A DNA stretch of 64,000 nucleotides from Myxococcales bacterium. GTDB taxonomy: Bacteria; Myxococcota_A; UBA9160; UBA4427. Shown here piece after piece: positions 30,182-63,920 of this stretch. The stretch is taken from the NCBI GenBank assembly GCA_022563535.1, contig JADFNE010000015.1:1305-65304 (forward strand). Direction: 5' to 3'. The notes beneath the pieces are model-generated. The model was not told the DNA's origin and ran no database searches. It saw only the letters and a program-made list of their open reading frames with translations. The first letter of the stretch is position 1. Each line of letters starts with the position of its first letter. A program made the position numbers and the translations under genes.

Positions 30182-30297
30182 GGAGGGGGGGGACTCCAAA
30201 GAGATTCGATGTGAGGTGTTGTTCAGGCCTTGAGGATGGCCAATCAGAGTGTTCTCCGACCGGCACGATTGAGCAATAAGTGTATCGACGGATACTC

Positions 30298-41286: not shown

Positions 41287-41443
41287 CGACTTGTCCTCTT
41301 GTAGGCCCTATCTGAACCGTTCGCTACCGTTGGACGGTAGACCACGAGAAAGTGGGGCGGCAACGGTTCCGTGATATTGTAGGAGGGTTCCAAACCTTTC
41401 CGATCACACGGAGCCGAGACTGACCGCCCAATCGACAACCCTC

Positions 41444-42544: not shown

Positions 42545-42603
42545 TAGCCTCTTTTTATGTGAATTCGATCTCCCCGTTCGTTCACCAAGACAGCGGATAA
42601 ACA

Positions 42604-43131: not shown

Positions 43132-43146
43132 GAATGTATTGGCGCC

Positions 43147-46301: not shown

Positions 46302-46714
46302 CCACAACCGACCCCAAGAAACTGCATCTCACCGCCTATTCCCGCGCCTTATCCGCCGAATCTGCTTCGGGTCGACTTCTAAAGGTGAGCTTCAATTTAT
46401 CCGAAGCAGAGGCGGGAACCGACTTAGGGTGCAAGCGATTGACAGCGAGACCAAGGGAAAAGCGCTGGCAGACTGTGATGCGAATTCAAACTCGAAAGAC
46501 GCTGGTCATTTTGTTGCGCCATTGACGATCGAAACAACAATTATCGAGCTGAAATCCGTTGTAAGCGCCAAGGGTTGTCCTAATCTCTGCGGCGCTTACC
46601 CCGGTCCCAGGCTCTTCGAACCCAAGCGGACCTCGCCGCCGTCATGGCCGGAAGTGCGGCTAGAACAGCGACGAAAACTGCGGCCACCGAGAGACGGAAT
46701 CACAGCGATCATCA

Positions 46715-48094: not shown

Positions 48095-48104
48095 GCAGAC
48101 TCCG

Positions 48105-49322
48105 ATGAAATTTCTTCGGGACATCAGCGATCAGATCGCACCCATTTTCGAGAAGGGTGGGCGCCTCGAAAAATTCTATCCCGCCTGGGAAATGATCGAC
48201 TCCGGAAACTTCACTCCCGGTGAAGTGACCAAGACCAGTTCCCACGTCCGGGATGGCATAGATCTCAAGCGGTTGATGATCACCGTCGTGATCGCGCTCG
48301 TACCCTGCGCCGGCATGGCGATGTACAACACCGGGTACCAGACATTGCTCGCAACCGCCCACGGTGGACTCCCGCTCGACGACTGGCGGATGGTGGTATG
48401 GGCCGCCACCGGGCTCGCATCGGACTTCAACAGTCCGCTCTCCTGCATCGTTCTGGGTTCCCTCTTCTATCTGCCTGTCTACGCCACGGTCATGGCAACC
48501 GGGGGAGCCGTTGAAATCACCGGTGCGATCGTTCGCGGACACGAGGTCAACGAAGGTTTTCTCGTGACCGGCATGTTGCTCCCCCTGACGCTCCCCGCCA
48601 CGATTCCGTTGTGGATGGTCGCATTGGGGATGGCCTTCGGCCTGATCTTCGGCAAAGAAGTCTTTGGCGGCACGGGGATGAACTTCTTGAACCCCGCGCT
48701 GGTCGCGCGAGCGTTTCTGTTCTTTGCGTATCCGGCGGACATGAGCGGTGAATCTCCTTGGATCGCCGCAAACCTCTCTGGCGTCGATTCCTACACCGGC
48801 GCGACCTTGCTCGCCCAGGCCGCAGAGACCAGCAGCGCCCTGGCGAATTACGACTGGTGGGACGCCTTTTACGGTTACATACCCGGCTCGATGGGCGAGA
48901 CCTCTACGGTCGCATGCCTGATGGGCTGCGCATTGCTGCTCTGGACCAAGGTCGGATCTGGCAAGACGATGGCCGGAGTGGTGATCGGCACCATCGCCAT
49001 GTCGCTGACCCTCAACCTCGTCGGTTCCGATTCCAACCCGTTGTTCGCCGTCCCCTGGTACTGGCACATGGTGCTGGGCGGCTGGGCGCTGGGGGCGGTC
49101 TTCATGGCGACGGACCCGGTCTCGTCCGCCTTCACCGATTCGGGCAAGTTCTACTACGGGCTGATGATCGGCATCCTCTGTATCCTGATTCGCGTGATCA
49201 ATCCCGCCTATCCGGAGGGGATGATGCTCGCAATCCTGTTCATGAACATGTTTGCGCCGCTGATTGATCACTTCGTAGTGCAGGGAAACATCAAGCGGAG
49301 GCAGGCCCGAAGTGCAGCATAG
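48105..49322 (+). CDS. nqrB: Na+-NQR subunit B
   Basis: Polytopic membrane protein with the FMN-attachment context VDSYTGATLL. The ORF-track start 48078 is a TTG inside nqrA; ATG 48105 (MKFLRD) is preferred. Confidence 0.9.
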   Translation: MKFLRDISDQIAPIFEKGGRLEKFYPAWEMIDSGNFTPGEVTKTSSHVRDGIDLKRLMITVVIALVPCAGMAMYNTGYQTLLATAHGGLPLDDWRMVVWAATGLASDFNSPLSCIVLGSLFYLPVYATVMATGGAVEITGAIVRGHEVNEGFLVTGMLLPLTLPATIPLWMVALGMAFGLIFGKEVFGGTGMNFLNPALVARAFLFFAYPADMSGESPWIAANLSGVDSYTGATLLAQAAETSSALANYDWWDAFYGYIPGSMGETSTVACLMGCALLLWTKVGSGKTMAGVVIGTIAMSLTLNLVGSDSNPLFAVPWYWHMVLGGWALGAVFMATDPVSSAFTDSGKFYYGLMIGILCILIRVINPAYPEGMMLAILFMNMFAPLIDHFVVQGNIKRRQARSAA

Positions 49323-50091
49323 TCCGGGATATATCATCGGCTTTACCGCGGTCGTGTGTCTGGTCTGCGCCGTATTCGTGGCGGGTTCTGCGGTGTCGCT
49401 CAAGGAGCGCCAGGATGCGAACATCGTCCTCGACCGGCAGAAGAAGGTACTGATTGTCAGTGGACTGATGGGCGAGAAGGACAAGCTCTCCGCAATCGAG
49501 ATTGGCGAGCTTTTCAACGAGAGAGTGACACCCCGGGCCGTAACCCTCGCCAGTGGCAGCTACAACGAAAAAATAGATGCCGCAAGCTACGACCAGCGCA
49601 AGGCCGCAAAAAACCCGGCGTTGAGTGAAGCTGTGCCGCCCAACGCCGCCAAGGTCCGGCGCGTTCCCAATGTGGGCCTGGTGTATCAGGTGCGATCCGC
49701 CGCGGGAGAAATCGAAGCCATCATAATCCCGATCGAGGGCATGGGGCTTTGGTCCACCCTCTATGGCTACCTCGCTCTCGCCCCGGATACCCGCACGATC
49801 AAAGGCATTACCTTCTACGAGCACGGCGAAACTCCCGGGCTCGGTGGCGAGGTCGACAACGCGCGTTGGAAGTCTCTCTGGAAGGGACGCCTCGCCTTCG
49901 ACGAGCGCTGGGTTCCGCGCATCGGGGTCGTAAAGGGAATGGCGGGCTCGGTAGCAGATGATCCCTACAACGTGGACGGTCTCTCGGGGGCAACGATTAC
50001 GAGTCGCGGAGTGGGCAGTCTGGTCAAGTATTGGCTCGGGGATTCGGGCTTTGGTCCCTACCTCGCCAAGCTGCGGGCCGAACAGAGTTAG
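49312..50091 (+). CDS. nqrC: Na+-NQR subunit C
   Basis: 259 aa, GTG start, a single N-terminal TM, and the FMN-attachment motif DGLSGATITSRGV. Confidence 0.9.
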   Translation: MQHSPGYIIGFTAVVCLVCAVFVAGSAVSLKERQDANIVLDRQKKVLIVSGLMGEKDKLSAIEIGELFNERVTPRAVTLASGSYNEKIDAASYDQRKAAKNPALSEAVPPNAAKVRRVPNVGLVYQVRSAAGEIEAIIIPIEGMGLWSTLYGYLALAPDTRTIKGITFYEHGETPGLGGEVDNARWKSLWKGRLAFDERWVPRIGVVKGMAGSVADDPYNVDGLSGATITSRGVGSLVKYWLGDSGFGPYLAKLRAEQS

Positions 50092-50154
50092 ATCCGGCAA
50101 ACTGTTCCAGCGGACAGCGGGCCAACATATTAGAGTTAGAGCGGAGGCAATTTC

Positions 50155-50832
50155 ATGGCAGCGAATTCGGCGGAGCGGGAAGCACTTCTCGATCCGTTGT
50201 TCAACAACAATCCCATCGGGCTTCAGGTGCTGGGGATCTGCTCTGCGCTCGCGGTCACGACCAAGATGGAAACCGCGCTTGTCATGAGTGCAGCGTTAGT
50301 TGCGGTCTGCGCCTTCTCGAACCTGGCGGTCAGCTTGATCCGCGAACACATCCCGCCCAGCGTGCGCATCATCGTTCAGCTCACGATCATCGCGTCTCTC
50401 GTCATCGTGACGGATCAGATCCTCAAGGCCTTCGTCTTCGACGTCAGCAAGCAGCTTTCGGTGTTCGTCGGTTTGATCATCACCAATTGCATCGTCATGG
50501 GCCGCGCCGAGGCCTTCGCAATGCAGAACCCGCCGAAGTTGGCCTTGATGGATGGGATCGGGAACGGTCTCGGCTACGGCGTAGTTTTGATGGTGGTCGC
50601 GTTCATGCGCGAACTGTTTGGCAGCGGCAAGTTGTTCGGCTACACAATTCTGAAGACGGTCAACGAAGGTGGCTGGTACGAACCCAACGGTTTGATGCTG
50701 TTGGCACCCGCCGCGTTCTTCTTGATTGGCTGCTTTATCTGGGCCGTGCGCGCCTGGAAACCCGAGCAAGTGGAGGAAGAGTTCCGTGTTGGAACACTAT
50801 TTGAGCCTGGCTACGAAGGCAATATTCGTTGA
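50155..50832 (+). CDS. nqrD: Na+-NQR subunit D
   Basis: [20 protein letters not shown] and [19 protein letters not shown] lies upstream of the ATG. Carries about 17 extra C-terminal residues after KPEQVEEE that overlap nqrE. Confidence 0.9.
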
Positions 50833-51397
50833 GAACATGGCGCTTGCCTTCTTTTTGGGCATGTGTTCATTCCTGGCGATTTCAAAGAAGGTCGAGACTG
50901 CGATCCAGTTGGGCTTCGCGGTCATCTTTGTGCTCGCGGTTACCTGCCCACTAAATCAGTTGCTCAACGAGGTGCTGCTGAAAGATGGTGCGCTCTCCTG
51001 GCTGGGCCTGGGAGACATCAACCTCGGCTTTTTGACCTTCTTGACTTTGATCGGCACGATCGCGGCCACGGTGCAGATCGTAGAGATGGTCATGGATCGT
51101 TTTTCACCGGCGCTCTACAACGCACTCGGGGTGTTCTTGCCCTTGATCGCGGTCAATTGCGCGATTCTAGGCGCGTCGCTCTTCATGGTCGAGCGCGACT
51201 ACAACCTCGCCGAGAGCACGGTCTTTGGCATCGGTTCGGGAATTGGCTGGGCGATCGCGATCGCTGCGCTGGCCGCCATTCGCGAGAAACTCCGTTACAG
51301 CAACGTACCTCCACCCCTTCGCGGTCTCGGTATCACGTTTCTTCTGGTCGGTTTGATGTCCATTGGCTTCATGGCCTTTTCAGGAATTCAGCTCTAA
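50786..51397 (+). CDS. nqrE: Na+-NQR subunit E
   Basis: The conserved N-terminus (M)[26 protein letters not shown] requires a GTG (50786) or TTG (50789) start, with GGAGG at 50772-50776. The ORF-track start at 50726 is over-extended. The first ATG (50837) would delete conserved residues. Confidence 0.85.
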
Positions 51398-51463
51398 CTC
51401 ATTTCTATTTCCGTCTAGCTGTCCGAGCTTCCATTCGGACACCGGACACAGGGTTACGCAGTC

Positions 51464-52687
51464 ATGGAAACAGTCATCTACGGTGTCGTCGCATTTACAC
51501 TCTTGATCGTCATGTTGGTCGGTGTGCTGATATTTGCCAAGGCAAAGCTGATCCCGAGCGGCGACGTCACGATCATGATCAATGGCGATCCTGAAAACTC
51601 ACTCGTCACCGCAAGTGGCGGTACGCTGCTCAATACCCTGAGTGCGAACAAGATCTTCATACCCTCTGCCTGTGGCGGAAAGGGAAGCTGCGGGGTCTGC
51701 ACCGTGAAGGTCCTCGAAGGCGGGGGCGCGATACTTCCCACCGAGGGGGCGTTCATTACCCGCGGTGAAGCCCGGGAGGGGTGTCGACTTTCCTGCCAGG
51801 TCAAAGTCAAGCAGGACATGAAGATCGAAATTCCCGCCGAAATCTTCAGCGTCCGCAAGTGGGAGTGCACGGTTCGCTCGAACAAGAATGTCGCGACGTT
51901 CATCAAGGAACTGATTCTCGAGCTGCCCGAGGGTGAGAGCGTCCCCTTCCAGGCGGGGGGCTACATCCAGATCGAAGCACCGCCCCACACTGTGCACTAC
52001 AAGGATTTTGAGGTCGAAGAGGAGTACCGGGACGACTGGGATCAATTCGACCAGTGGCGCTATGTCTCCGTGGTCGACGAGGAAGTCATCCGCGCCTTCT
52101 CGATGGCGAACTATCCCGAGGAAGAGGGCATCATCATGCTGAACGTCCGCATTGCCTCGCCTCCGCCTCGCACCCCGGACGTCCCGCCGGGCATGATGTC
52201 TTCATGGCTCTTCAGTCTCAAGCCCGGAGACAAGGCCACCATCTCGGGCCCCTTCGGCGAGTTCTATGCCAAGCCTACCGACAACGAGATGATCTTCATC
52301 GGCGGCGGAGCGGGAATGGCGCCGATGCGCTCGCATATCTTCGACCAGTTCCGAAGACTGAACAGCGATCGCAAGATCTCGTTCTGGTACGGCGCGCGCA
52401 GTCTTCGAGAGTCGTTCTACAATGATCACTTCGACAAGATCGCCGAGGACTTCGATAACTTCGAATGGCATTTGGCACTCTCGGAACCGCAGGAAGAAGA
52501 CCATTGGACCGGGCTCACGGGGTTCATCCATCAGGTGCTGTACGACAACTACCTGAAGGACCACAAATCGCCCGAGGATTGCGAGTACTACATCTGCGGC
52601 CCGCCGATGATGAACGACGCCGTGATCGCGATGCTCATCGATCTCGGAGTCGAGAACGAGAACATCATGTTCGATGACTTCGGCTAG
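51464..52687 (+). CDS. nqrF: Na+-NQR subunit F
   Basis: N-terminal TM, 2Fe-2S ferredoxin motif [14 protein letters not shown], and an FNR-like FAD/NADH domain ([17 protein letters not shown]). Confidence 0.95.
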
Positions 52688-53777
52688 GCCGACACCCCCT
52701 TCGACCGGCCTCCCTCGCCGTACTCTCGACAAGCGGGCGCGCATCGCCCTGCCGCTGTGTGGAGCATTGCTGCTCGGGCTTGCGATTCACCGCCTGATCA
52801 TCGCCGACCCAGCCGAACGCCCATATTTCGAGTTCACCGGCAGAACCATGGGCACGACCTACTCAGTGAAGGTCGCAACCCAAGACCTCTCAGAGGCTGC
52901 GAAGTCGGTGCTCGCTCGCGACGTCGAAGCTCAGCTCGACCGGGTGAATGCGCTGATGTCCAGTTACCTTCCCGATTCCGAGCTATCCCGCTTCAATCGA
53001 CACAGAGCGACTGATCCATTCGAATTTTCTGAAGAGACGATCGAGATATTTCGCATTGCCCGTCGGGTGAGTGAAATGACGGGCGGGGCGTTTGACATTA
53101 CCGTTGGGCCGCTGGTAGCCGCCTGGGGTTTTGGGGCGACCGATCGCCCCCCCGAGCCCCCGAGCGAAGAGGCTCGCCGAGAACTCCAACAAAGGGTCGG
53201 ATACACCAAGCTCATTTACGATCCGGCGCGGCCCACCGTCGCAAAAAGCGATCCTCGCATCGAGTGCGATCTGTCTGCGATCGCAAAGGGCTACGGAGTC
53301 GACCTCGTCGCTCGGACAATAGAGAAACTCGGTCACTCCAACTACCTGGTCGAGATCGGGGGCGAGTTGCGCGCTCACGGCCACAAGCTCGACGGGCGGA
53401 TCTGGCGGGTGGGGATCGAGCGACCCGATGCCGCCGCGCCCACGAGCCACGAAGTCGTGGTTCTCTCCGATATTTCCCTGGCGACTTCGGGAGACTATCG
53501 GGACTACTACGAAGTCGAGGGTCAGCGGATTTCTCATACCATCGATCCCCGAGCCGGCCGGCCAATCGCACACCATCTCGCATCGGTGAGTGTGCTCCAT
53601 GCAGAAGCCGTCTGGGCCGATGCATTGGCGACCGCACTCAACGTCATGGGGCCAGAAGATGGATTGGCCTGGGCCGAGGCCCACAAAACTCCAGCGCTGT
53701 TCCTGGTGCGCGAAGACGGGGGCAAATTTCGAACGATTGCGAGCACGGCATTCGCCCGCCTGCGCGAGCCGCAGTGA
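52674..53777 (+). CDS. apbE: FAD:protein FMN transferase (ApbE)
   Basis: [28 protein letters not shown] and ATSGDY are ApbE family motifs. Sits directly after nqrF, as in other nqr operons. Confidence 0.9.
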
Positions 53778-53922
53778 GCCCGGGCCCGGATCAACGATTC
53801 ATCGTTGGCCCCGGGCGACCTGCTATCATGGGGCCGCCCTTGAGCTTTCGACTCCTCTGACCGAAACAGATCAAAACAGATCGAAAACGACAGGAAACCC
53901 CGGAACGGGCGGAAAAAGCATC

Positions 53923-54114
53923 ATGCAGACCTTCATCGCAACTCTGATTCTATTTTGTCTGGCCGCCGCCGGCATGGCGGTAGGTTTGATCTTTTCGAAT
54001 CGAAGCCTGCGCGGTTCCTGTGGCGGAACGGGCAAGGACTGCAGTTGTAGTGAGAAAGAGCAGAAGGAATGCGCGCTGAAAAAGGAACATCAGGCGCACG
54101 CCGGAGCGCACTGA
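53923..54114 (+). CDS. nqrM: Na+-NQR maturation protein NqrM (DUF539)
   Basis: 63 aa: one TM (FIATLILFCLAAAGMAVGLIF) followed by the Cys cluster RGSCGGTGKDCSCS. It is hidden in the 3' third of the spurious 174-aa ORF 53590..54114. ATG at 53923 verified. Confidence 0.75.
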   Translation: MQTFIATLILFCLAAAGMAVGLIFSNRSLRGSCGGTGKDCSCSEKEQKECALKKEHQAHAGAH

Positions 54115-54118
54115 GGAT

Positions 54119-54661
54119 TCAGGAGCGCTGCTTGATCGGGTAGCCGTTGCGGAAGAGTTGCTCCCCGAGTTGGTTGCCGGCGTTGTCCCAGGAAATCAGT
54201 TTGCCGTGTTGGAGTCCTCGCTGGAACTCGGCTTGAACTCGCTTTTTTCCGTTCGGGTACCAGCGTGTCCACACTCCGACACGGAGCCCATCTTCGTACG
54301 CGCCCGATCTCGCAGGACGCCCGTCGGGGTACCACTCGGAATACCAGCCGTGCTTGAGTCCCTGGTCGAGACCGACCCGCACACACCATTCTTTGAATCC
54401 CGCCGGAGGTTCGTCACCTTGGCGTTCGGTTCCGGGAGGGCAGTCAGGGCGGTACGGGACTACGAAACCGACGCCACCGTCATACGCGTTATTCGCCCGA
54501 CTGGCGGAGGCCCTGGCAAGAGATTCTGAATCTTGGGCCTGTTCTTGGCGTGAGGCAGCCAAGTCATCGGATTGACGGTTCGCAACGACACCTCCAGCCA
54601 GAACCACAAGCGCAATACAAACCAGCACCGCTGGACTGCGAAGGTGATCGATTTGCGACAT
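54119..54661 (-). CDS. Membrane-anchored MORN-repeat (YwqK-like) protein
   Basis: N-terminal TM (AVLVCIALVVLAGGVV), then repeats of the G-x-W-x-x-WY-P-[ND]-G type (HGWYSEWYPDGRP, GVWTRWYPNGKK, HGKLISWDNAGN). Start trimmed to ATG 54661. Confidence 0.6.
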   Translation of the reverse strand: MSQIDHLRSPAVLVCIALVVLAGGVVANRQSDDLAASRQEQAQDSESLARASASRANNAYDGGVGFVVPYRPDCPPGTERQGDEPPAGFKEWCVRVGLDQGLKHGWYSEWYPDGRPARSGAYEDGLRVGVWTRWYPNGKKRVQAEFQRGLQHGKLISWDNAGNQLGEQLFRNGYPIKQRS

Positions 54662-54730
54662 GAGATCCACAGCCCAAGACTCCCCATCTGACCAAGTCTC
54701 GAGTCGTATCGTCCCCCCGCCCAAACCAAT

Positions 54731-55777
54731 TTAGCCCGCCAACACCTCAATATGCCCGGCTTGCCCATCCACCACTTCACCGATCACCGCCCGAGTCTCG
54801 ACCCCATTCTCCTCGAGTTGCTCGAGCAACTGACGCTCATTCTCCGGACGTACTGCAATCACCAATCCCCCTGATGTCTGGGCATCCGCGAGAATCAGGC
54901 GGTCGTCCTGGGAGACTGATTCGGCAAACTTCGTGGTGGCTTCGATGTAGCGAAGGTTGTTCTTGCTCCCCCCCGGCACCAGCCCCTCGGAGGCGAGCCG
55001 CCGGGTCGCCGCGAACATGGGGACCGATGCGGCCTGGATCCGAGCCGACAAACCAGAACCCATCACGAGGTTGTAGACGTGTCCCAACAACCCAAAACCC
55101 GTGACGTCAGTTGCCGCGCGAGAACCGGCTGCCAAGGCAGCGTCCTTGGCACCCTTGTTCAGGGTTTGCATCGCCGAGATCACCTCATGCATCTCGGCTT
55201 CCGTGAGTTTCTGGTGCTTGATCGCCTGGGCGGCGATCCCCGATCCGATCGGTTTCGTGAGCACCAGCCGGTCTCCAACCCGGGCACCGGTTTGTGAGAG
55301 AGTTCGCTCTGGGTCGACGTCTCCGATCACACACAACCCGTACTTGAGCTCCGGGTCGAGCACCGTATGTCCCCCGACAATCGCGCAACCCGCTTCTGCG
55401 GCTTTGTCGGTACCTCCCTGGAGAATGCGCGTCAAAATTTCGGGCGGAACTTCGTCCTCGGGAAAACCGCAAATCGCCAACGCGACCCGGGGCTCGCCCC
55501 CCATCGCGTAGACGTCGGAGAGTGAATTCGCCGCAGCAATCGCTCCAAACTGCACCGGATCGTCGACAATCGGAGTGATGAAATCCACCGTGAAAGCGAG
55601 CTTCGACACATCGCCTGTATTCACGAGGGCGGCATCATCCATCGGGCCGACATTTGTATCGACCCACGAATTTGAAAACGTATTCAGTTTCGACAGGACC
55701 TGACCCAGGCCCTCAGCACTTAGCTTGCGCGCTCAACCACCGGCGGGAACAAGCTGGGTCAATCGAATATCACCCAT
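54731..55777 (-). CDS. selD: Selenide, water dikinase (selenophosphate synthetase), Sec-containing form with in-frame UGA at 55733-55735
   Basis: ORF-track entry 54731..55642 lacks the conserved SelD N-terminus. Reading through the in-frame TGA gives MGDIRLTQLVPAGG-U-ARKLSAEGLGQVLSKL, which aligns with E. coli [21 protein letters not shown] (Sec at the Cys17 position, Lys20 conserved). ATG 55775-55777 has AGGAGG 5 nt upstream and is in frame with 55642. Confidence 0.85.
55695..55713 (-). promoter_or_regulatory. Putative bacterial SECIS hairpin for the selD UGA
   Basis: In the mRNA sense, AGGGCCUG-GGU-CAGGUCCU forms 8 bp including one G-U pair, with a GGU apical loop. The stem starts 20 nt after the UGA, which is compatible with bacterial SECIS geometry (G/U in the apical loop). 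Confidence 0.55.
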
Positions 55778-55851
55778 GATGCCTCCTATTGATGCCGACT
55801 CTTGATACCCCACCCCCTTGATCGATCGCAACTTCCTGGAATCATTAGCGC

Positions 55852-56823
55852 ATGAGACTGCGGATCCAGATGCTCTGCCCAGCCCCTCCCGGTTCCCGAA
55901 ACGGCAACCGAATCACGGCGCTGCGTTGGTCGCGCTTCCTCCGCTCACTCGGACACCAGGTCGAGATTCTCCACGACCTCGATGATCGCGATATCGGTGC
56001 GCGAGCCGACGTGCTCGTACTTCTTCACGCCGCAAAATGCGCGAACGCAGCGCGGCGATTCCGCGAGAACTACCCCGAGCGCTCGTTGGTGGTGGCCCTC
56101 ACCGGAACCGATCTGTATCGGGATCTCGCAAGGCAACCCCGAGTGCATCGCTCCCTCGAACTTGCAGACCGGATCATCTTGTTGCAACGCGCAGGTCTCG
56201 CAAATCTCGCCCCTCACCTTCGGCGCAAGTCCCACGTGATTCATCAGAGCAGCGTTCCGGTAGCTGCACCGCGGTTTTCGTTCGATCGCCACTTTTACGT
56301 CTGTGTCGTTGGCCACATGCGTGCGGTCAAGGATCCGCTGCGCTGCGCAATGGCCGTGCGCGCACTACCGAAGAGTTCGAGAATCCGGGTGACACATATT
56401 GGTCGCGCAATGACGGAACGCTTTGCCGCACTTGCCTCGCGCGAAGATGAAGAGAATCCCCGCTACTCGTGGCTCGGGGAGTTCACCCACGCGCGCACCC
56501 GAAGGCGTATCGCACAGAGCCACGTGCTCGTTCTGACGTCGCGCATGGAGGGTGGCGCCAACGTGATCAGCGAGGCGTGCGCGGCCGGGGTTCCCATTCT
56601 CGCTTCGAGAATCGAAGGCAGCGTCGGTTTACTCGGAGCGAAACATCCCGGAATGTTCGAAGTGGGAAATACTCGCGAGTTGAGAGGCCTGCTTTTGGCT
56701 GCTGAGAACGACAGTACGTTTTATGAGAAGCTTCGCCGCGCGTCACTTCAGAAGGCGCCGCAGTTCAAACCCAGTCTCGAAAGAACCGCGTGGCGGAAAC
56801 TGCTCGCGAAGCTCCCCAACTGA
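55852..56823 (+). CDS. senB: GT-B glycosyltransferase resembling the SelD-associated selenosugar synthase SenB (TIGR04348-like)
   Basis: 323 aa. The distinctive N-terminus CPAPPGSRNGNRITALRWSRFLRSLGHQV and the GT1/GT4-type C-terminal EGGANVISEACAAGVPILASRIEG. Divergently adjacent to selD with a 74-bp spacer. Assignment is from remembered family features and context, not from a search. Confidence 0.55.
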   Translation: MRLRIQMLCPAPPGSRNGNRITALRWSRFLRSLGHQVEILHDLDDRDIGARADVLVLLHAAKCANAARRFRENYPERSLVVALTGTDLYRDLARQPRVHRSLELADRIILLQRAGLANLAPHLRRKSHVIHQSSVPVAAPRFSFDRHFYVCVVGHMRAVKDPLRCAMAVRALPKSSRIRVTHIGRAMTERFAALASREDEENPRYSWLGEFTHARTRRRIAQSHVLVLTSRMEGGANVISEACAAGVPILASRIEGSVGLLGAKHPGMFEVGNTRELRGLLLAAENDSTFYEKLRRASLQKAPQFKPSLERTAWRKLLAKLPN

Positions 56824-57057
56824 AAGTTTAGGTTCGCTGCGAATTGAGACTTGCGCGCTCGGCGCACGTTCTCACAAACGAAACTAGAACGCGTTTGTTC
56901 GTACAACCCACTTGGAAATCTAAACTTTTTCTCCATCTGAGCCGTTAATAATTTCGCGGGCCGGCGCACACCCAGTGTGTGCGCGCACCGCGAAGCACCG
57001 GCAGTGCGCAGTTCCAAAATTGCATGCTGTCTGAACTATTTGTGCCGGGAGTTGGCG

Positions 57058-58650
57058 TTGTTCAAGTTCGCCTGGAACAGAAACAAGGCTACGGCTCGTA
57101 CAGGCCGTGTCGGGCTCGCCCTGGAGAGCGACGGATTCACCCTTTGTCACGTGGTTGAGGAAGAGGGTGTACCACCGCGCGTGACACTGTGTAAAGCCGT
57201 CTCAGCCCTTACACCGGAAGAGCGGAACACAGCGCTCGCTGAGCTTGTCGCGGAGTCGAAACTTTCGGGGACTCCGTGTGTCGTCGTGCTTCCGCCAGAA
57301 TCCTATAGCCTGCGGCTCTTGGATCGTCCCAAAGTGGAAGACGACGAGATCGCCAGTTCCCTGCCCTGGCTGATCAAGGACTTGATTGACTTTGATCCGA
57401 GCGATGCGAGGGTGGACTACTTCGATTTCCCCGCTGACGCAAACCGAGGCCGAGACCCGCAACTGTTCGTCGTCGCCGCTCGCAACGACGTCATCGAGGA
57501 AGTTACGAATTTGCTGGACGGGTCGGGGCTGGAACTCGACGCCGTTGATATCGGTGAGCTTGCGCTGCGCAATCTGACATTGGTGATGCCAGAGCAGGTG
57601 GCCGGCACGTTGCTCCTCGAACTGCGGCCCAAGGGCGGCATTCTCGCCATCTGCCACGAATCCAAACTCTATTTTGCGCGCTCGATCAGCACGGGGACGA
57701 GTCATATCGATGATGCGATGAGCCAGGAGATCGCGCTGGATGATTCTGATGACCAGCTCAGCGATCACGTACGCAGCCTTCTCGACGAGTTACTGCTCGA
57801 GATTCAGCGGTCCCTCGATTACTACGAGAGCGAAATTGGAAAAGCACCTGCCTCACGTCTTGTCATTGCTCCGTCTACCGCGGAGATCTCGCTCTACATT
57901 CCGTATCTCACCGAACAGCTTCGTCCGGTCGCCGTAAGCCAGCTCGACCTCCACGAACTGGTCGAATCCGACGAGATCTTGCCCAACAAGCTTCAGGCCA
58001 AGGCACTGCTCGCACTGGGCGGTGCGCTGCGCGAAGACCTCGAACAGCAGCTCGACCTGAACCGGGACAGGAAGATCGTTTCCGGCTACACCACGTTGCC
58101 CATCCAATGGGTGGCCAAAGTTTGTGCCATGTTGTTTTGCGGGCTAATGCTGACCTACGGGTATGGCACGTACCAGATGCAACAGCTGAAAGCGGAGGTG
58201 GAAGCCAGCCTCCAGCAGCACAACCTGATCGACAGGGAGATTACGAAACTCGAGTATGAATATTCCCTGAGACATCCTGCGGGAGAGGTCAGCGGTCCCC
58301 TTGCCCGACTGCGTGCAGAACGTGACCGAACCGCCCGCACACTGCGCAGGCTGGAGATTCTTGGGGGCGGCCGACGCGAAGGCTTTTCGAAATATTTCGT
58401 CGGGTTTGCACGTCACCTGGTTCCCCAGCTCTGGCTGACGCAGATTGACGTGATCGACGGCGGAGATTCACTTTCGATTCGCGGCAGTACGTTGGCTGCA
58501 AAGCGGGTACCCCAACTCCTCCGACAACTCCGAAGCGAACCGTCGTTCAGCGGAAAGACCTTCGCTCTGTTCCAGCTAACCCAGGGCCAGGGCCCGGGCA
58601 TTCTCGACTTTGCGTTGGAGAGTTTTCCCGCCGCAGGAGTCGCGCCATGA
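57058..58650 (+). CDS. mshI: MSHA pilus biogenesis protein MshI (PilM/PilN-like fusion)
   Basis: Actin-like ATPase-fold N-terminal half, a central TM (VCAMLFCGLMLTYGY), and a PilN-like C-terminus. First gene of the I-J-K-L-M-N-E order. Start uncertain: TTG 57058 with GGGAG 6 nt upstream is preferred over the ORF-track 56977. Confidence 0.65.
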   Translation: MFKFAWNRNKATARTGRVGLALESDGFTLCHVVEEEGVPPRVTLCKAVSALTPEERNTALAELVAESKLSGTPCVVVLPPESYSLRLLDRPKVEDDEIASSLPWLIKDLIDFDPSDARVDYFDFPADANRGRDPQLFVVAARNDVIEEVTNLLDGSGLELDAVDIGELALRNLTLVMPEQVAGTLLLELRPKGGILAICHESKLYFARSISTGTSHIDDAMSQEIALDDSDDQLSDHVRSLLDELLLEIQRSLDYYESEIGKAPASRLVIAPSTAEISLYIPYLTEQLRPVAVSQLDLHELVESDEILPNKLQAKALLALGGALREDLEQQLDLNRDRKIVSGYTTLPIQWVAKVCAMLFCGLMLTYGYGTYQMQQLKAEVEASLQQHNLIDREITKLEYEYSLRHPAGEVSGPLARLRAERDRTARTLRRLEILGGGRREGFSKYFVGFARHLVPQLWLTQIDVIDGGDSLSIRGSTLAAKRVPQLLRQLRSEPSFSGKTFALFQLTQGQGPGILDFALESFPAAGVAP

Positions 58651-59336
58651 GGGAGCGCTGGGAGCGACTGCAGGAACGATATCTCGAACTCACGCTTCGT
58701 GAACGCATCATGGTCTTGTGCGCCCTTCTCGCGAGCCTGTTTGGAGTCGTGGACGCGGTCTTTCTGCTTCCGATGGATCGAGAACGGGAGCAGCTTCAGA
58801 GTCAATTGAGCCAGCACGTGGCATCGATCAAGCGCCTGGACGAGCGCGCGGAGCAATTGGCCCAGCGAATCGCAGGCAGAACCCCTACTCCCATGGACCG
58901 GGAAGAGACGGCGCTGAAGCGGCAGATCGAGATCATGAACGCGGACATCGAAGAGCACATGTCTTCGATGATCGCGCCGAACGATGTCACACGAATGCTC
59001 GAGGAACTCCTGAGCGAGGAAAGCGACCTCACCCTCGTCAAGCTCATGAGCACGAATCCGGCAACGTTCCCCCCCGCAACCGAAGCTGGAGTTCCGGGGG
59101 CAGCTGTCGACCCTCAAGGGCAAACCGCTGAGAAGGCGGAGTTCTATCGCCATGGCTTCGTGATCGAACTGGAAGGGTCCTACCTCGCGACTCTGCACTA
59201 CCTCGAGTCGATCGAGAGTCTTCCATGGGATCTTTCGTGGGACACCATCACCTACACGGTCATCGACTACCCGCGTGCGCGGATTTCGATCCACCTCCAT
59301 ACATTGAGCCGCGAGGAGAATTGGATCGGTGTCTAA
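58647..59336 (+). CDS. mshJ: MSHA biogenesis protein MshJ (PilO-like)
   Basis: 229 aa with an N-terminal TM plus coiled coil. ATGA overlap with the mshI stop; position in the cluster. Confidence 0.65.
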   Translation: MRERWERLQERYLELTLRERIMVLCALLASLFGVVDAVFLLPMDREREQLQSQLSQHVASIKRLDERAEQLAQRIAGRTPTPMDREETALKRQIEIMNADIEEHMSSMIAPNDVTRMLEELLSEESDLTLVKLMSTNPATFPPATEAGVPGAAVDPQGQTAEKAEFYRHGFVIELEGSYLATLHYLESIESLPWDLSWDTITYTVIDYPRARISIHLHTLSREENWIGV

Positions 59337-59712
59337 CCCTTTCACAAACCGCCAGTTCCCCGCCTGGATCATCATCGCGCTGGTCTGTTGCGCAGGCTTG
59401 TTGCATCCCTCGCTCGGACTTGCACGCGGGGAGCTGAAAGATCCGACCCGGCCACCAGACTCGTCGAAACTCGAAGAGGCCGGCGTGGATGTCTCCGCCT
59501 CCTCTCCCTACGCGTTGACCGCAATACTGGTCGCCAAAGGGCGGCGAATCGCCGTGATCAACGGCCAACCGGTTCAAGCTGGCGATCAGGTCGCGAATGC
59601 GACAGTTGTCAGCATCTTTCGGGACAAGGTTGTTCTCCGGGCGCGCACAGGAGATCTCACGCTTCGATTGCTCCCCCGTTCGATCAAGATCAGCGAGGCA
59701 TCGGGCAAATGA
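59329..59712 (+). CDS. mshK: MSHA biogenesis protein MshK (PilP-like)
   Basis: 127 aa, GTG start, signal peptide, and the LKDPTRPP motif followed by a small beta domain (ILVAKGRRIAVINGQPVQAGD). Confidence 0.6.
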   Translation: MSNPFTNRQFPAWIIIALVCCAGLLHPSLGLARGELKDPTRPPDSSKLEEAGVDVSASSPYALTAILVAKGRRIAVINGQPVQAGDQVANATVVSIFRDKVVLRARTGDLTLRLLPRSIKISEASGK

Positions 59713-61523
59713 ATTTTGGATCCGGTAGCGCGCGTTGGACGTCAGGCATCGCCGGGGTTGCACTCGGCCGTCTCGGGACGGCATTGCTCGCAACCCTAAT
59801 GCTTTCATGCCAGACCATGAGTGCCTCCGATGCGCCGTCGGTGGATGCAGGCGAGCAGACCGAGGCACCCCCCGCTCCCCCAGCGACTGTGGCAGCGGCG
59901 ATCCTGCCTCCGGTCAATCACAACACCCATTCGCTCGTCGATGTTCTCACGACCGATACGGAGTCTCGCTTCGACATCCACGTCAACGGCGCTCCGGGCG
60001 CCTCGTTCTTTCTCAGCCTGGTCGAGAACACGTCCTATAGCGTTGTGCTTCATCCTGACATCACGGGTGAGATCACCCTTTCGCTCAGCGACGCCACCTT
60101 GACCGAAGTGCTGGCGGCCGTCAGGAATGTCTACGGCTATGACATCCAGCGCGATGGCCAGCGCATTTACGTGATGCCCGCCGGCTTGCGAACCGAGATC
60201 TTCGAACTCAACTACCTGAATCTCGAGCGGCGGGGGCAATCTCAGACTTGGGTGAGTTCTGGTCAGATCTCGGACAAGATCGAAGGAGGCAACTCCGATT
60301 TTGGGTCGGGTGGCGGGACGAGCGGTTCGAATGCTTCACCGAGGTTCAACTCGGGCAGCAGTATCTCGACCAGCAATGGCTCGAATATCTGGCGTGAACT
60401 CATACAGAGTGTTTCTTCGATCATCGGGAACGGCGAGGGTCGTTCCGTGGTGACGAACCCCAATGCGGGGTTGATCGTCGTGCGGGCAATGCCGCGGGAA
60501 TTGCGGGATGTCGGGAACTATTTGAGCAGGGTTGAGGAGTCTCTGAACCGACAGGTGATCATCGAGGCGAGAATTCTCGAAGTGACGCTCAGCGACGCAT
60601 ACCAGGCGGGTATCAATTGGTCACAGTTGGTCGACAAGGACGGCTTCGAGACCACCATCAGCCAAACCGGTGGTGGAACGACCTTCGATACCGGGGTGTC
60701 GGACAACGCCGGGAACACGGGCAACCTTCACCCGAGCGCAGCGACTTTGGCAGCTGCGGGAATTCTGGACACCGTTGCGGCGTCTTCGTTCGGCGGAATC
60801 TTTAGCGTCGCAATCCAGGCCAGCCACTTCACCGCCCTGATCGAATTGTTGGAAAATCAAGGCGAGGTTCGAACCCTCTCGAATCCGCGCATTTCTACGA
60901 TGAACAATCAAAAGGCCATCATCAAGGTGGGCCAGGACGAATTTTTTGTAACGGATGTCTCCACTACGACGGTAACCGGGGGGGCTGGCAGCACGTCTAG
61001 TCCCAACATCACATTGACACCGTTCTTTTCTGGAATCGCGCTCGACGTCACCCCACAAATCAGTCGCGACAACACAGTTGTTCTGCACATCCACCCATCG
61101 GTCAGCCAGGTCACGGATCAAACCAAGACGATAACCCTCAACGACGAGGTGCAGGTACTGCCTCTCGCACTGAGTACGATCCGGGAGTCGGACAGCATCG
61201 TCCGAGCGCACAGCGGTCAGGTCGTTGTGATTGGTGGATTGATGCAGGACCTCAGGAGCGAGCGCGATTCAAAGGTCCCATTCCTCGGCAACATTCCAAT
61301 TCTCGGCAGGTTGTTCAAACAAGAGAAGAACATAAGCCGCAAGAGTGAGTTGGTGATCCTCCTGCGACCGATCGTCGTCGGCGCGGAGACCTGGGGGGAC
61401 TACGCGGGTTCAATCACAAGATCAATCGACTCTCTGTCCCGTGACCCGTCCAATCGATCGGGCACGGTGGGCTTTGATCCGCGTCCGCCCTATTCGTCGC
61501 CAGCCGAATTCAAGGAGTACTAG
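59709..61523 (+). CDS. mshL: MSHA secretin MshL (lipoprotein secretin, GspD/PilQ superfamily)
   Basis: Trimmed from 59388 to ATG 59709 (ATGA overlap with mshK). Lipobox LLATLMLSC. Secretin C-domain VVIGGLMQD..VPFLGNIPILGRLFK..SELVILLRP. Confidence 0.85.
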   Translation: MNFGSGSARWTSGIAGVALGRLGTALLATLMLSCQTMSASDAPSVDAGEQTEAPPAPPATVAAAILPPVNHNTHSLVDVLTTDTESRFDIHVNGAPGASFFLSLVENTSYSVVLHPDITGEITLSLSDATLTEVLAAVRNVYGYDIQRDGQRIYVMPAGLRTEIFELNYLNLERRGQSQTWVSSGQISDKIEGGNSDFGSGGGTSGSNASPRFNSGSSISTSNGSNIWRELIQSVSSIIGNGEGRSVVTNPNAGLIVVRAMPRELRDVGNYLSRVEESLNRQVIIEARILEVTLSDAYQAGINWSQLVDKDGFETTISQTGGGTTFDTGVSDNAGNTGNLHPSAATLAAAGILDTVAASSFGGIFSVAIQASHFTALIELLENQGEVRTLSNPRISTMNNQKAIIKVGQDEFFVTDVSTTTVTGGAGSTSSPNITLTPFFSGIALDVTPQISRDNTVVLHIHPSVSQVTDQTKTITLNDEVQVLPLALSTIRESDSIVRAHSGQVVVIGGLMQDLRSERDSKVPFLGNIPILGRLFKQEKNISRKSELVILLRPIVVGAETWGDYAGSITRSIDSLSRDPSNRSGTVGFDPRPPYSSPAEFKEY

Positions 61524-61527
61524 CCGC

Positions 61528-62418
61528 ATGTACGAGCAGCACTTCGGCCTCAGCGCCATGCCCTTCAATGCAACGCCCGACCCTTCTTTCTACGTAAATC
61601 TTTCGGTTCACCACGCGGCGCTCAATACCTTGGTCGTCGCTCTGCGGAGCGGCGAGGGGATCGTGAAGATCGTAGGCGAGGTCGGGACCGGAAAGAGCAT
61701 GCTGTGCCGAAGACTCTTGAAGGATCTCGGTCCCAAGTTCGTTGCGGCCTACCTGCCCTATCCGGCCTTGAGTCCGATGCACATTCAGCTCGATCTCGCA
61801 GAGGAACTCGGAGTCGTACTGCCCCCCAATGTAACTCCCCATGAACTGCTCAAGTACCTGAAGGAGGTGCTGGTGGACATCCATCAGCAGGGTCGCAGAT
61901 GTGTGATGATCGTCGACGAAGCCCAGACACTGCCCGACGCGACCCTCGAATGCATTCGGCTAATGAGCAATCTCGAAACCCGCACATCCAAATTGCTGCA
62001 GATCGTCCTGGTGGGTCAGCCCGAGCTGGATCTGAGGATCGAACAACCTCGCATGCGGCAACTGCAGCAACGGATCGCCTTTGCCCACAGATTAAACTCG
62101 ATCGACAAGAGAACGACGGACGCCTATACCCGCCGCCGCCTTTCGATCGCTGGCTATGAGGGCGGTCGGCTGTTTTCGCCGTGGGCGCTTGGCGCAATTC
62201 ATCGATCGAGTGGGGGAATCCCTCGAATCATCAATACCCTTTGCCACAAATCCATGATTTGCGCGTTCGGAAGAGGGGATGACACGATTCGTCATCTGCA
62301 TGCGCGCAAGGCCGCCGCCGACAGTGAGGGCGTGCAAAGGTGGCGACGTCTCACAAGACGAAAGTGGCGCCGCAGGTCGATCGCGCTCGAGGATGCCGCG
62401 CCGCGGATCACTCCATAA
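61528..62418 (+). CDS. mshM: MSHA biogenesis ATPase MshM (ExeA-like AAA)
   Basis: MYEQHFGLSAMPFNATPDPSFY opening, Walker A GEVGTGKSM and Walker B CVMIVDEAQ. Trimmed from 61441 to the verified ATG at 61528. Confidence 0.8.
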   Translation: MYEQHFGLSAMPFNATPDPSFYVNLSVHHAALNTLVVALRSGEGIVKIVGEVGTGKSMLCRRLLKDLGPKFVAAYLPYPALSPMHIQLDLAEELGVVLPPNVTPHELLKYLKEVLVDIHQQGRRCVMIVDEAQTLPDATLECIRLMSNLETRTSKLLQIVLVGQPELDLRIEQPRMRQLQQRIAFAHRLNSIDKRTTDAYTRRRLSIAGYEGGRLFSPWALGAIHRSSGGIPRIINTLCHKSMICAFGRGDDTIRHLHARKAAADSEGVQRWRRLTRRKWRRRSIALEDAAPRITP

Positions 62419-62486
62419 ACGAGTAGATCAATTCAAGCGATCGGACCCAAAGGGCCGTCGCACGGTCAGAGAAAGGACGCAATTCG

Positions 62487-63920
62487 ATGAGTTTGGTCAA
62501 CGACTTGCTCGAAGATTTCTACCAACGACGGGTTTCGCCGGACAAAAACCCGGAGAGTCCCCTGGCAAACATCGAAGTTCCCCGGCGCGAGCTGGCTTTC
62601 AAGAAGGGAGCAAGGGTTCAGCCCAAGTTCAATTCGACTTCCCGAATTGTGATCGGTCTGGTCGCACTGACTTGCCTGGCGGTGATCGCTCTCGAAGTGG
62701 TGCTCCGCCTCAGCCCAGACATCGAGACGAACGCGACGCCCGATGTGAGCGCACGGCCTCCTGATCACTTTGGTGCAATGGGATCTCCCCTCGGTTCGGG
62801 CGCGAACGAGCCCTTCGCCGATTCTCGAGCCCTCGCTTTCGACGCCGGAGTCGATTCACTCGCCGCGCCCAAGATCGCCGCCCAGGATTGGGCCGAACTG
62901 ACAGGCACCAGCATCGAGTCGAGCGGGGACTACACCCGGCTGCGAATATTTTTGAGTCGAGAACGCGAATACTGGATTCAGGGCGATCCCACCGTCGGTG
63001 AGATCGAAATCGTGATCACGAAGACGCGACTCGCGGAAGCTTTCCTGCCGAACGCATTCGAAACGTCTGGCCTGAGCTTGAAAGAAGCACACAACTCGAG
63101 CATTGGCCTGCACCTGCTGTTCAAGCTGGAATCGTCCTCGCTTGTACAGAGCCAGTTCGTGAACGATGGATCCAACCCGCAGCTGATTCTGGACATCCTG
63201 TCCGACGCGGCGAACTCCAGCGTCGGCATCAGGGTCGAGGATCTGCCCCATGCGCCCATCGTCGCCGAAGCACCCCGTGAGCCAATCGTTCGCGAAACCG
63301 GCTGGGGAACCATCACGCGGTCACGGCCCCATATCGCCTTGACGACGTCTGAAGCTCATCGATCACTTGATCGCGCGCGGCACCTGGTTGCCCAGAATCG
63401 CGCGGAAGAGGCGATCGTCGAATATATCCGGGCACTCTCGTTGGAACCGGGTTTGCATCGCGCACGAGAATCCCTGGTCGGTTTGTTGATCGAGTCGGGT
63501 CAGTTGAGCGCCGCAGAGCGGCACCTGGCCATGGGGCTTGAAAACAAGCCCACACATTCCGAATACACACTGCTCCGTGCTCAGTTGCTGGCAGCGATGA
63601 AGCAACCCGACCGGGCGATCGTCATCCTCGAAAGCCTGCCGTTGCCGCCAGAGCGTCGATCCGATGCTTTGAATCTTTTGGCCGCGCTCTATCAACAGAA
63701 AGGAGATCACGGCCGGGCGGAAGCCCTCTTCCGAGGCGCTGTCAGCATCAGCCCGCACGAGGCTCGCCTTTGGATGGGGTTGGGTATCTCGCTCGAAGGA
63801 CAACAGCGCGGGACCGAAGCACTCGCGGTCTACAAGCAAGCCGAGAGTCTTGCGGAGTTTGAGATCGGGCCAAGGCGTTGGTTGCGCAACCGCATCCGCG
63901 ATCTCGCAAAGGTGGAATAG
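62487..63920 (+). CDS. mshN: MSHA biogenesis protein MshN (TPR protein)
   Basis: 477 aa with an N-terminal TM (IVIGLVALTCLAVIALEVV) and C-terminal TPR repeats (AEEAIVEYIRALSLEPGLHRA..). Position is between mshM and mshE. Confidence 0.65.
   Translation: MSLVNDLLEDFYQRRVSPDKNPESPLANIEVPRRELAFKKGARVQPKFNSTSRIVIGLVALTCLAVIALEVVLRLSPDIETNATPDVSARPPDHFGAMGSPLGSGANEPFADSRALAFDAGVDSLAAPKIAAQDWAELTGTSIESSGDYTRLRIFLSREREYWIQGDPTVGEIEIVITKTRLAEAFLPNAFETSGLSLKEAHNSSIGLHLLFKLESSSLVQSQFVNDGSNPQLILDILSDAANSSVGIRVEDLPHAPIVAEAPREPIVRETGWGTITRSRPHIALTTSEAHRSLDRARHLVAQNRAEEAIVEYIRALSLEPGLHRARESLVGLLIESGQLSAAERHLAMGLENKPTHSEYTLLRAQLLAAMKQPDRAIVILESLPLPPERRSDALNLLAALYQQKGDHGRAEALFRGAVSISPHEARLWMGLGISLEGQQRGTEALAVYKQAESLAEFEIGPRRWLRNRIRDLAKVE

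What the first reader, a model, noticed from the sequence alone, without database searches (positions are those of the whole stretch)
54731..56823. Head-to-head selD / SenB-like glycosyltransferase pair without a SenA- or OvsA-type partner: candidate selenosugar cassette feeding an unknown product
A GT-B glycosyltransferase is divergently transcribed from selD across a 74-bp spacer. Its N-terminus (PAPPGSRNGNRITALRW..LGHQV) matches what I recall of the SelD-linked TIGR04348/SenB family.
- Known pathways: in the described selenoneine (senABC) and ovoselenol pathways, a SelD homologue and SenB make a selenosugar. This is then handed to a C-Se bond-forming enzyme encoded alongside.
- What differs here: no EgtB/OvoA-like (DinB plus FGE-sulfatase) gene is in the window. 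The flanks are a MORN protein and the MSHA pilus cluster.
- Dual role: the SelD is the Sec-containing housekeeping-type enzyme, so one selD may serve both Sec/selenouridine synthesis and small-molecule selenium metabolism.
- Possible outcomes: the selenosugar is an end product, the acceptor enzyme is encoded elsewhere, or a different and undescribed selenometabolite is made.
Basis: partly seen in the sequence, partly recalled or inferred. Interest (0 to 1): 0.7.

Follow-up and report, generated by a model that had tools for sequence, protein, structure and literature searches.

The report
Selenosugar gene pair, partner enzyme unlinked
A selenophosphate synthetase gene and a SenB-type selenosugar synthase gene sit back to back in an uncultured Myxococcota-like bacterium; the pair is real and probably active, but this kind of cassette is already known, and related genomes suggest the missing selenoneine enzyme is simply encoded elsewhere.

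Summary
selD (54731-55777, minus strand, in-frame UGA/Sec at codon 15) and a glycosyltransferase (55852-56823, plus strand) are divergent across 74 bp.

- **Family:** the glycosyltransferase scores 372.6 bits on NCBIfam TIGR04348 SenB (cut-off 300). It matches the solved SenB structures at E 2e-57 and keeps every residue shown by mutagenesis to matter.
- **No partner nearby:** no SenA/EgtB/OvsA-type enzyme lies in the 64 kb, and none in the up to 10 kb of flank held around any relative in its clade.
- **Why 'unknown product' is weak:** published counts show only 827 of 2353 TIGR04348 genes have egtB and selD within 5 kb, and ovoselenol genes can be chromosomally separated.
- **Link to hercynine:** in this SelD/SenB clade one relative has selD<->senB-MFS-egtD. 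Another has the same Sec-type selD head-to-head with egtD instead of senB. That points to hercynine, and so to selenoneine made from dispersed genes.
- **Untested:** whether the genome holds a SenA could not be checked.
- **Side observation:** SenA-linked clusters almost always use a fused oxidoreductase-SelD, whereas this clade uses the short Sec-type SelD.

Verdict: new member of a known kind, modest interest.

The parts
54731..55777 (-). selD, selenide water dikinase (selenophosphate synthetase). 348 codons, with Sec at codon 15.
   Evidence: TIGR00476 342 bits against a cut-off of 125; PRK00943 301.5 against 299. Pfam AIRS plus AIRS_C. Read-through translation.
55733..55735 (-). In-frame TGA read as selenocysteine (motif GG-U-ARK).
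   Evidence: The same TGA, in the same motif, is present in all 13 clade loci where this part of selD is held (7 distinct sequences) and in the other short SelDs next to SenB.
55695..55713 (-). SECIS-like hairpin (AGGGCCUG/GGU/CAGGUCCU) starting 22 nt after the UGA.
   Evidence: RNAalifold on 7 relatives gives 8 pairs, with G-U/A-U alternation at one pair and no double-sided compensatory change. No Rfam family reached threshold. Suggestive only, because the stretch is also coding.
55778..55851 (.). 74-bp divergent intergenic region. It holds the AGGAGG Shine-Dalgarno of selD (55782-55787, minus strand). It also holds a conserved TTGATC (55818-55823), a 16-nt gap, then TGg-AATCAT (55837-55845), ending 6 nt before the senB ATG.
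   Evidence: The motif block is conserved in window, L001, L004 and L005 although spacers range from 74 to 203 bp. The consensus promoter scan reported nothing (the motif matches 8 of 12 positions and the scan needs 9). Promoter function and a leaderless senB transcript are inference.
55852..56823 (+). senB-family Se-glycosyltransferase (selenosugar synthase), 323 aa.
   Evidence: TIGR04348 372.6 bits against a cut-off of 300. V. paradoxus SenB structures 8jjq/8fbx match at E 2e-57 over residues 7-321. N20, T23, H58, T83, T85, D86, R155, V157, K158, E231 and E239 are all kept.
54119..54724 (-). Flanking MORN-like protein; not a conserved part of the module.
   Evidence: MORN_2 at 23.9 bits, below the Pfam cut-off. 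The gene in this slot differs or is absent in relatives.
46715..54114 (+). Upstream context: nqrA-F, apbE and a 63-aa nqrM-like ORF (53923-54114). This is the conserved left neighbour of the pair in the closest relatives.
   Evidence: Pfam NQRA and ApbE. Same order in L001, L004, L005 and L094. The nqrM identity rests on position and size only; it has no Pfam hit.
56977..63920 (+). Downstream context: MSHA-type type IV pilus genes (PilM_2/PilN, T2SSM-like, secretin, AAA_22, TPR). Not conserved with the pair.
   Evidence: Present in L005 but replaced by other genes in L001, L002 and L094.

Best explanation
**Proposed mechanism**
This is a two-gene selenosugar module in an uncultured Myxococcota-like bacterium.
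1. The short, selenocysteine-containing SelD phosphorylates selenide to selenophosphate.
2. The divergently transcribed SenB homologue attacks a UDP-sugar (UDP-GlcNAc or UDP-Glc in the characterised enzymes) with selenophosphate. It then cleaves the Se-P bond through the conserved lysine, giving a 1-seleno-sugar.
3. The selenosugar is most likely handed to a SenA-type non-haem-iron selenoxide synthase encoded elsewhere in the genome. That enzyme would act on hercynine to make selenoneine.

**Status of each step**
- Shown: family membership, conserved catalytic residues, and conserved pairing of the two genes.
- Inferred: enzyme activity, the identity of the sugar, and above all the existence of a distal SenA and EgtD in this genome.

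**Confidence**
- That the pair makes a selenosugar: about 0.85.
- That the end product is selenoneine through an unlinked SenA: about 0.5.
For: **SenB is a full family member**
- It passes the NCBIfam equivalog cut-off and aligns end to end with solved SenB structures.
- It keeps all residues shown by mutagenesis to be needed. Residue roles come from PMC10891094; the mapping is. These residues are invariant or nearly so (at least 164 of 173) in my alignment, except V157, which is E in 101 and V in 69.

**The pairing is conserved**
- selD<->senB is kept in a single clade of an NJ tree with SenB identity of 51-97%, although the flanks change completely.

**Link to hercynine within that clade**
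- L092/L093 (a Myxococcota MAG) has selD<->senB, an MFS_2 transporter, then egtD. The partial egtD scores 283 bits on TIGR03438 over 217 of 301 model positions.
- L176 has a Sec-type selD, 62% identical to the window's, head-to-head with egtD itself.

**Genes of this route are scattered in these organisms**
- egtD has no NHISS next to it in L092/L175, L176 or L178.
- So absence of SenA near senB carries little weight.

**Published precedent**
- Unlinked selenosugar cassettes are described in PMC11030361.
- The 827 of 2353 statistic is.
Against: - No SenA, EgtB, OvsA or EgtD homologue is in the 64 kb window. None lies in the up to 10 kb held on either side of any clade member.
- The genome outside the window was not available. 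A distal SenA is therefore assumed, not seen.
- The egtD links come from relatives with only 57% SenB identity and 62-67% SelD identity, not from the window's own lineage.
- egtD also serves ergothioneine synthesis, so its adjacency to selD/senB is suggestive rather than specific.
- Among loci with at least 5 kb on both flanks, 35 of the 37 SenA-linked ones that also hold a SelD use a fused oxidoreductase-SelD. Five of the seven with a short SelD lack SenA. This could mean the short-SelD arrangement is functionally different.
Confidence: 0.55

Rival explanations
1. The selenosugar is itself the end product (storage, detoxification or export form of selenium), or it feeds an acceptor enzyme outside the NHISS family, giving an undescribed selenometabolite.
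For: - The whole clade lacks an NHISS within reach.
- 12 of 64 well-flanked SenB loci have neither selD nor NHISS nearby, so SenB clearly persists outside sen clusters.
- A GPH/MFS_2-type sugar transporter sits next to senB in L092.
- Short Sec-type SelD correlates with absence of SenA.
- Kayrouz & Seyedsayamdost note that selenosugars 'could play yet unknown roles'.
Against: - No recurrent alternative neighbour was found in SenA-less loci.
- The SenB sequence shows no change at substrate or catalytic positions relative to SenA-linked homologues.
- The egtD linkage in L092 and L176 points to the known hercynine route.
- Dispersed genes are documented for ovs.
Confidence: 0.22
2. The cassette feeds an unlinked OvsA/OvsM pair, giving ovoselenol, as in Marinobacter vinifirmus.
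For: - Published precedent for chromosomally separated senBC and ovsAM (PMC11030361).
- The window's context has a marine or aquatic flavour (Na+-NQR, MSHA pilus).
Against: [quoted passage not shown]
- This window's best named ParC relatives are Myxococcota/'Deltaproteobacteria' MAGs.
- Relatives link selD/senB to egtD, which is not used for ovoselenol.
Confidence: 0.06
3. An ordinary GT4 glycosyltransferase that happens to lie beside the housekeeping selD, with no selenium chemistry.
For: Pfam alone sees only generic Glycos_transf_1 domains. The neighbours are unrelated housekeeping genes.
Against: - TIGR04348 scores 372.6 bits, against 110 bits for the next glycosyltransferase family.
- All SenB-specific residues are kept.
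- The pairing with selD is kept across five contexts.
Confidence: 0.03

Closest known systems
senABC selenoneine cluster (Variovorax paradoxus, Amycolatopsis palatopharyngis; Kayrouz & Seyedsayamdost 2022)
   Same: - SelD homologue plus TIGR04348/SenB selenosugar synthase side by side.
- SenB is 39% identical to the crystallised V. paradoxus enzyme, with identical catalytic and substrate-pocket residues.
   Different: - No SenA in 64 kb.
- The SelD is the short Sec-type (348 aa), not the about 760-aa oxidoreductase-SelD fusion (TIGR03169 N-terminus). That fusion accompanies SenA in 35 of the 37 SenA-linked loci with a SelD sampled here.
- The genes are divergent rather than overlapping or co-directional.
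- No egtD or selenate transporter nearby.
ovs ovoselenol system with chromosomally separated senBC (Marinobacter vinifirmus; PMC11030361)
   Same: A stand-alone selenosugar cassette (senB plus selD homologue) whose C-Se bond-forming partner is encoded elsewhere.
   Different: - Different phylum (the best named ParC relatives are Myxococcota MAGs).
- Relatives associate the cassette with egtD, which ovs organisms mostly lack.
Housekeeping Sec-containing SelD of selenocysteine/selenouridine-using bacteria
   Same: - TIGR00476 equivalog.
- UGA-encoded Sec at the catalytic position followed by a hairpin.
   Different: Stably paired with senB (or, in L176, with egtD) rather than with selA/selB/selU or yedF.

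Membership tests
SenB / TIGR04348 selenosugar synthase | Score above the curated NCBIfam equivalog cut-off over the full model | tested here: met
   372.6 bits against 300, model positions 1-309 of 310. Clade relatives score 373-382.
SenB / TIGR04348 selenosugar synthase | Homology to the solved GT-B SenB structures | tested here: met
   8jjq, 8jjn, 8fbx and 8k5u match at E about 2e-57 to 7e-56 over residues 5-321. This is by sequence; no model was built.
SenB / TIGR04348 selenosugar synthase | Lys158 (Se-P cleavage), N20/T23/E231 (sugar), H58/T83/T85/R155 (selenophosphate pocket), E239, EGGA(H/N)V motif | tested here: met
   All are kept. R61 is K. The motif reads EGGANV, as in 172 of 173 homologues (residue roles from PMC10891094).
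SenB / TIGR04348 selenosugar synthase | Selenosugar formation from selenophosphate and a UDP-sugar | not testable with these tools
   Needs an enzyme assay.
senABC selenoneine gene cluster | SenA (NF041186; DinB_2 plus FGE-sulfatase) adjacent to senB | tested here: not met
   hmmsearch --max with a 66-sequence SenA profile on the six-frame window gave a best E of 2.1. The profile's representative scores 517 bits on NF041186. No such domains appear in the Pfam scans.
senABC selenoneine gene cluster | SenA and EgtD present somewhere in the genome | not testable with these tools
   Only 64 kb is available. The exact protein is not on record. The genome and metagenome scans were truncated at 600 rows.
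senABC selenoneine gene cluster | Association with hercynine synthesis (egtD) | tested here: inconclusive
   Absent from the window. Present 1.3 kb from senB in L092, and as the divergent partner of selD in L176.
ovs ovoselenol system | OvsA (NHISS) and OvsM methyltransferase co-occurring with senBC | tested here: not met
   There is no NHISS in the window. OvsM was not searched for specifically. Genome-wide presence is not testable.
SelD (selenide, water dikinase) | TIGR00476 above cut-off, with catalytic Sec/Cys and Lys in the N-terminal glycine-rich loop | tested here: met
   342 bits against 125. Motif GG-U-ARK, with TGA conserved in the relatives.
SelD (selenide, water dikinase) | Bacterial SECIS downstream of the UGA | tested here: inconclusive
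   A conserved 8-bp hairpin sits 22 nt after the UGA, but without double compensatory changes. No Rfam hit.

The most novel reading that the evidence does not exclude
A Myxococcota-related clade has coupled its single, selenocysteine-containing housekeeping SelD to SenB and has no SenA/OvsA-type enzyme anywhere in the genome. The selenosugar would then be an end product, or the substrate of an undescribed, non-NHISS selenium-transfer enzyme: a third selenosugar-dependent pathway.
Probability: 0.2. Interest if true: 0.65.

Novelty: new member of a known kind. Interest (0 to 1): 0.3.

Why it matters
- **As it stands:** it extends the known SelD/SenB selenosugar cassette to an uncultured Myxococcota-like lineage. 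It also shows a stable arrangement in which the Sec-type SelD, not the dedicated fused SenC, is the partner.
- **Comparative pattern:** fused SelD goes with SenA, while short Sec-SelD goes with dispersed or absent SenA. Together with the selD<->egtD pairing, this gives a concrete handle for asking how selenium is divided between selenoprotein synthesis and small-molecule synthesis.
- **If complete genomes of this clade lacked any NHISS:** it would be a good place to look for a new use of selenosugars.

Tried and rejected
1. **Locating the window's own genome.** Exact look-up of the SenB protein found nothing on record.
2. **Genome and metagenome scans with SenB.** They returned nothing closer than 52% and 56% identity. 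Close relatives came only from the protein search plus contig look-ups.
3. **Hoping SenA follows egtD in the L092 lineage.** The next gene is an isocitrate/isopropylmalate dehydrogenase homologue, not an NHISS.
4. **Searching SenA-less loci for a recurrent alternative partner.** None was found beyond selD.
5. **Rfam and tRNA scans of the window.** Nothing.
6. **Consensus promoter/terminator scan of the spacer.** Nothing.
7. **The final Nature and Nat Chem versions of the two key papers.** Neither is held; the preprints were used instead.
8. **My initial guess of a marine gammaproteobacterium (NQR, MSHA, topo IV).** Rejected, because the best named ParC relatives are Myxococcota/'Deltaproteobacteria' MAGs.
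Full report
**1. What is in the sequence**

ORF listing shows a 303-aa AIR-synthase-like ORF at 54731-55642 on the minus strand and a 323-aa ORF at 55852-56823 on the plus strand. Translating upstream of the first ORF shows that it continues through an in-frame TGA. It reaches an ATG at 55777 and reads MGDIRLTQLVPAGG-U-ARKLS. selD has an AGGAGG Shine-Dalgarno 4 nt before its ATG.

**2. Family assignment**

- Against NCBIfam the glycosyltransferase scores 372.6 bits on TIGR04348 'selenoneine biosynthesis selenosugar synthase SenB'. The curated cut-off is 300 and model positions 1-309 of 310 are matched. The next glycosyltransferase family reaches only 110 bits.
- Pfam sees only the generic Glycos_transf_1 and Glyco_trans_1_4 domains.
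- Against PDB sequences the only hits are the four SenB entries (8jjq, 8jjn, 8fbx, 8k5u), at E about 2e-57 over residues 7-321.
- I mapped the residues that Nat Commun 2024 (PMC10891094) and Biochemistry 2023 (PMC10702425) identified by structure and mutagenesis. N20, T23, H58, T83, T85, D86, R155, V157, K158, E231 and E239 are all kept.
- R61 is K. The 'EGGAHV' motif reads EGGANV, which is in fact the form in 172 of 173 homologues I aligned.
- SelD scores 342 bits on TIGR00476, cut-off 125.
- The TGA is conserved in every relative and is followed 22 nt later by a conserved 8-bp hairpin. This is consistent with a bacterial SECIS, although no double compensatory change supports it and the stretch is coding.

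**3. Is a SenA/EgtB/OvsA-type enzyme nearby?**

- I fetched 80 SenB loci from GTDB species genomes and clustered their ORFs. A 446-aa family occurs in 66 of the 91 loci then held, all of them among the 80 GTDB loci.
- Its representative scores 517 bits on NF041186 SenA (cut-off 420) and carries DinB_2 plus FGE-sulfatase.
- A profile of these 66 sequences, run with all filters off against every stop-to-stop frame of at least 30 aa in the window, gives a best E of 2.1.
- Pfam scans of about 50 window genes found only ordinary chromosomal functions:
  - fumarase, Tsp protease, ParC/ParE, HtpG, MetH, AsnB, an MCP and GlpD;
  - AmtB/P-II, luciferase-like monooxygenases and a Sel1-repeat protein;
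  - nqrA-F/apbE and an MSHA-type pilus cluster.
- There is no FGE-sulfatase, DinB_2 or Methyltransf_33 (EgtD) domain, and no domain suggesting selA, selB or selU.

**4. Relatives and organism**

- The exact protein is not on record. The protein search found a series of relatives at 97-56% identity, all from metagenomes.
- Their contigs show nqrA-F/apbE/a 63-aa ORF/(variable small gene)/selD<->senB in L001, L002, L004, L005-7 and L094. The downstream genes differ: MSHA pilus, DUF525, or HupE.
- L008 (56%) has selD<->senB between moaA and a dienelactone hydrolase.
- L092/L093, from a Myxococcota MAG (57%), has HSP20 x2, selD<->senB, an MFS_2 transporter and then egtD.
- ParC from the window has its best named relatives in Myxococcota/'Deltaproteobacteria' MAGs at 66-72%. 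Unnamed metagenomic relatives reach 90%.
- The organism is therefore an uncultured Myxococcota-like bacterium, not a gammaproteobacterium as the NQR and MSHA genes first suggested.
- In an NJ tree of 173 SenB sequences, the window, L001-9, L092-94 and L116 form one clade. Every member with enough flank has a short Sec-type selD head-to-head, and none has an NHISS within reach.

**5. How unusual is 'SenB without SenA'?**

Contexts of the 64 loci with at least 5 kb on both flanks:

| Context | Loci |
|---|---|
| Fused oxidoreductase-SelD plus SenA (16 of these also with egtD) | 35 |
| SenB alone (mostly Planctomycetota) | 12 |
| SenA but no selD | 10 |
| Short selD without SenA | 5 |
| Short selD with SenA | 2 |

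- This agrees with the published figure that only 827 of 2353 TIGR04348 genes have both egtB and selD within 5 kb.
- An unlinked selenosugar cassette is therefore a described situation.
- What I did not find described is the pattern in my sample: SenA-linked clusters almost always use the fused SelD (TIGR03169 N-terminus), whereas the short Sec-type SelD goes mostly with SenA-less loci. The sample is small and lineage-biased.

**6. What does the selenosugar feed?**

- No alternative partner recurs in SenA-less loci. Nothing except selD is conserved next to senB in this clade.
- Two relatives give a lead:
  - In L092 the gene 1.3 kb beyond senB is egtD. The partial gene scores 283 bits on TIGR03438.
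  - In L176 a Sec-type selD, 62% identical to the window's, lies head-to-head with egtD itself, with no senB in 20 kb.
- The same SelD clade is thus found paired with senB, with senB plus egtD, or with egtD. Hercynine, the EgtD product, is the SenA substrate.
- None of these egtD genes has an NHISS next to it. In the L092 lineage the gene after egtD is an Iso_dh homologue. L178, which shares L092's upstream gene set, has a lone egtD. Elsewhere, egtD is canonically fused to an FGE-sulfatase gene (L179).
- These organisms therefore scatter the genes of this route. This makes the absence of SenA in the window weak evidence for its absence from the genome.

**7. Best explanation and rivals**

I put about 0.85 on the pair being an active selenophosphate-to-selenosugar module.

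| Reading | Probability |
|---|---|
| Product goes to an unlinked SenA (selenoneine) | about 0.5 |
| End product or unknown non-NHISS acceptor | about 0.2 |
| Unlinked OvsA (ovoselenol) | about 0.06 |
| Chance adjacency of an ordinary GT4 | about 0.03 |

The genome-wide presence of SenA and EgtD is the decisive unknown.

**8. Regulation (inference only)**

- A block TTGATC-16 nt-TGgAATCAT, ending 6 nt before the senB ATG, is conserved in window, L001, L004 and L005 although spacer lengths range from 74 to 203 bp.
- senB has no Shine-Dalgarno. This would fit an extended -10 promoter giving a leaderless senB mRNA.
- The consensus scan did not call it.

**9. Verdict**

The interpretation overreaches: this is a new member of the known SelD/SenB selenosugar cassette in an unlinked arrangement that the literature already allows for, with comparative hints towards selenoneine. 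The residual novel possibility, a SenA-free use of selenosugars, is not excluded and is cheaply testable on a complete genome.

Noticed in passing
L012-L174 (SenB loci), summary: Among loci with at least 5 kb on both flanks, SenA-linked SenB loci use the about 760-aa oxidoreductase-SelD fusion (TIGR03169 N-terminus) in 35 of the 37 that hold a SelD; the other two have a short SelD. Five of the seven with a short Sec-type SelD next to SenB lack SenA. I found no mention of this split in the papers read.
   Followed up: partly
L176:8845-10981: A Sec-type selD (62% identical to the window's) is divergently paired with egtD (hercynine synthase). No senB or NHISS lies within 10 kb on either side.
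   Followed up: partly
L092:10983-12374: A GPH/MFS_2-type sugar transporter lies between senB and egtD in a Myxococcota MAG. It could be a selenosugar, hercynine or selenoneine transporter.
   Followed up: no
L023, L030, L049 (Planctomycetota SenB-alone loci; e.g. L030:7785-8951): A roughly 420-aa ORF that looks by eye like a class-V aminotransferase or kynureninase recurs within about 2 kb of lone senB genes in three Planctomycetota MAGs. Its family was not checked with any profile library.
   Followed up: no
window 55818-55851: A conserved TTGATC-16-TGgAATCAT block ends 6 nt before the senB ATG, and senB has no Shine-Dalgarno. This is a possible leaderless transcript.
   Followed up: partly
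window 46715-54114: A complete Na+-NQR operon (nqrA-F, apbE, a 63-aa nqrM-like ORF) sits in a genome whose ParC groups with Myxococcota MAGs. The operon is the conserved left neighbour of selD-senB in the closest relatives.
   Followed up: partly
window 28274-29590 (+), 29627-30199 (-), 34278-34811 (-), 42604-43131 (+): Four ORFs with gene-like third-codon-position GC content (438, 190, 177 and 175 aa) have no Pfam match at E<=1e-4.
   Followed up: no
window 40417-44169: Two luciferase-like monooxygenase genes flank a DegS/HtrA-type protease and a 175-aa unknown, next to a 713-aa Sel1-repeat protein (44166-46307).
   Followed up: no
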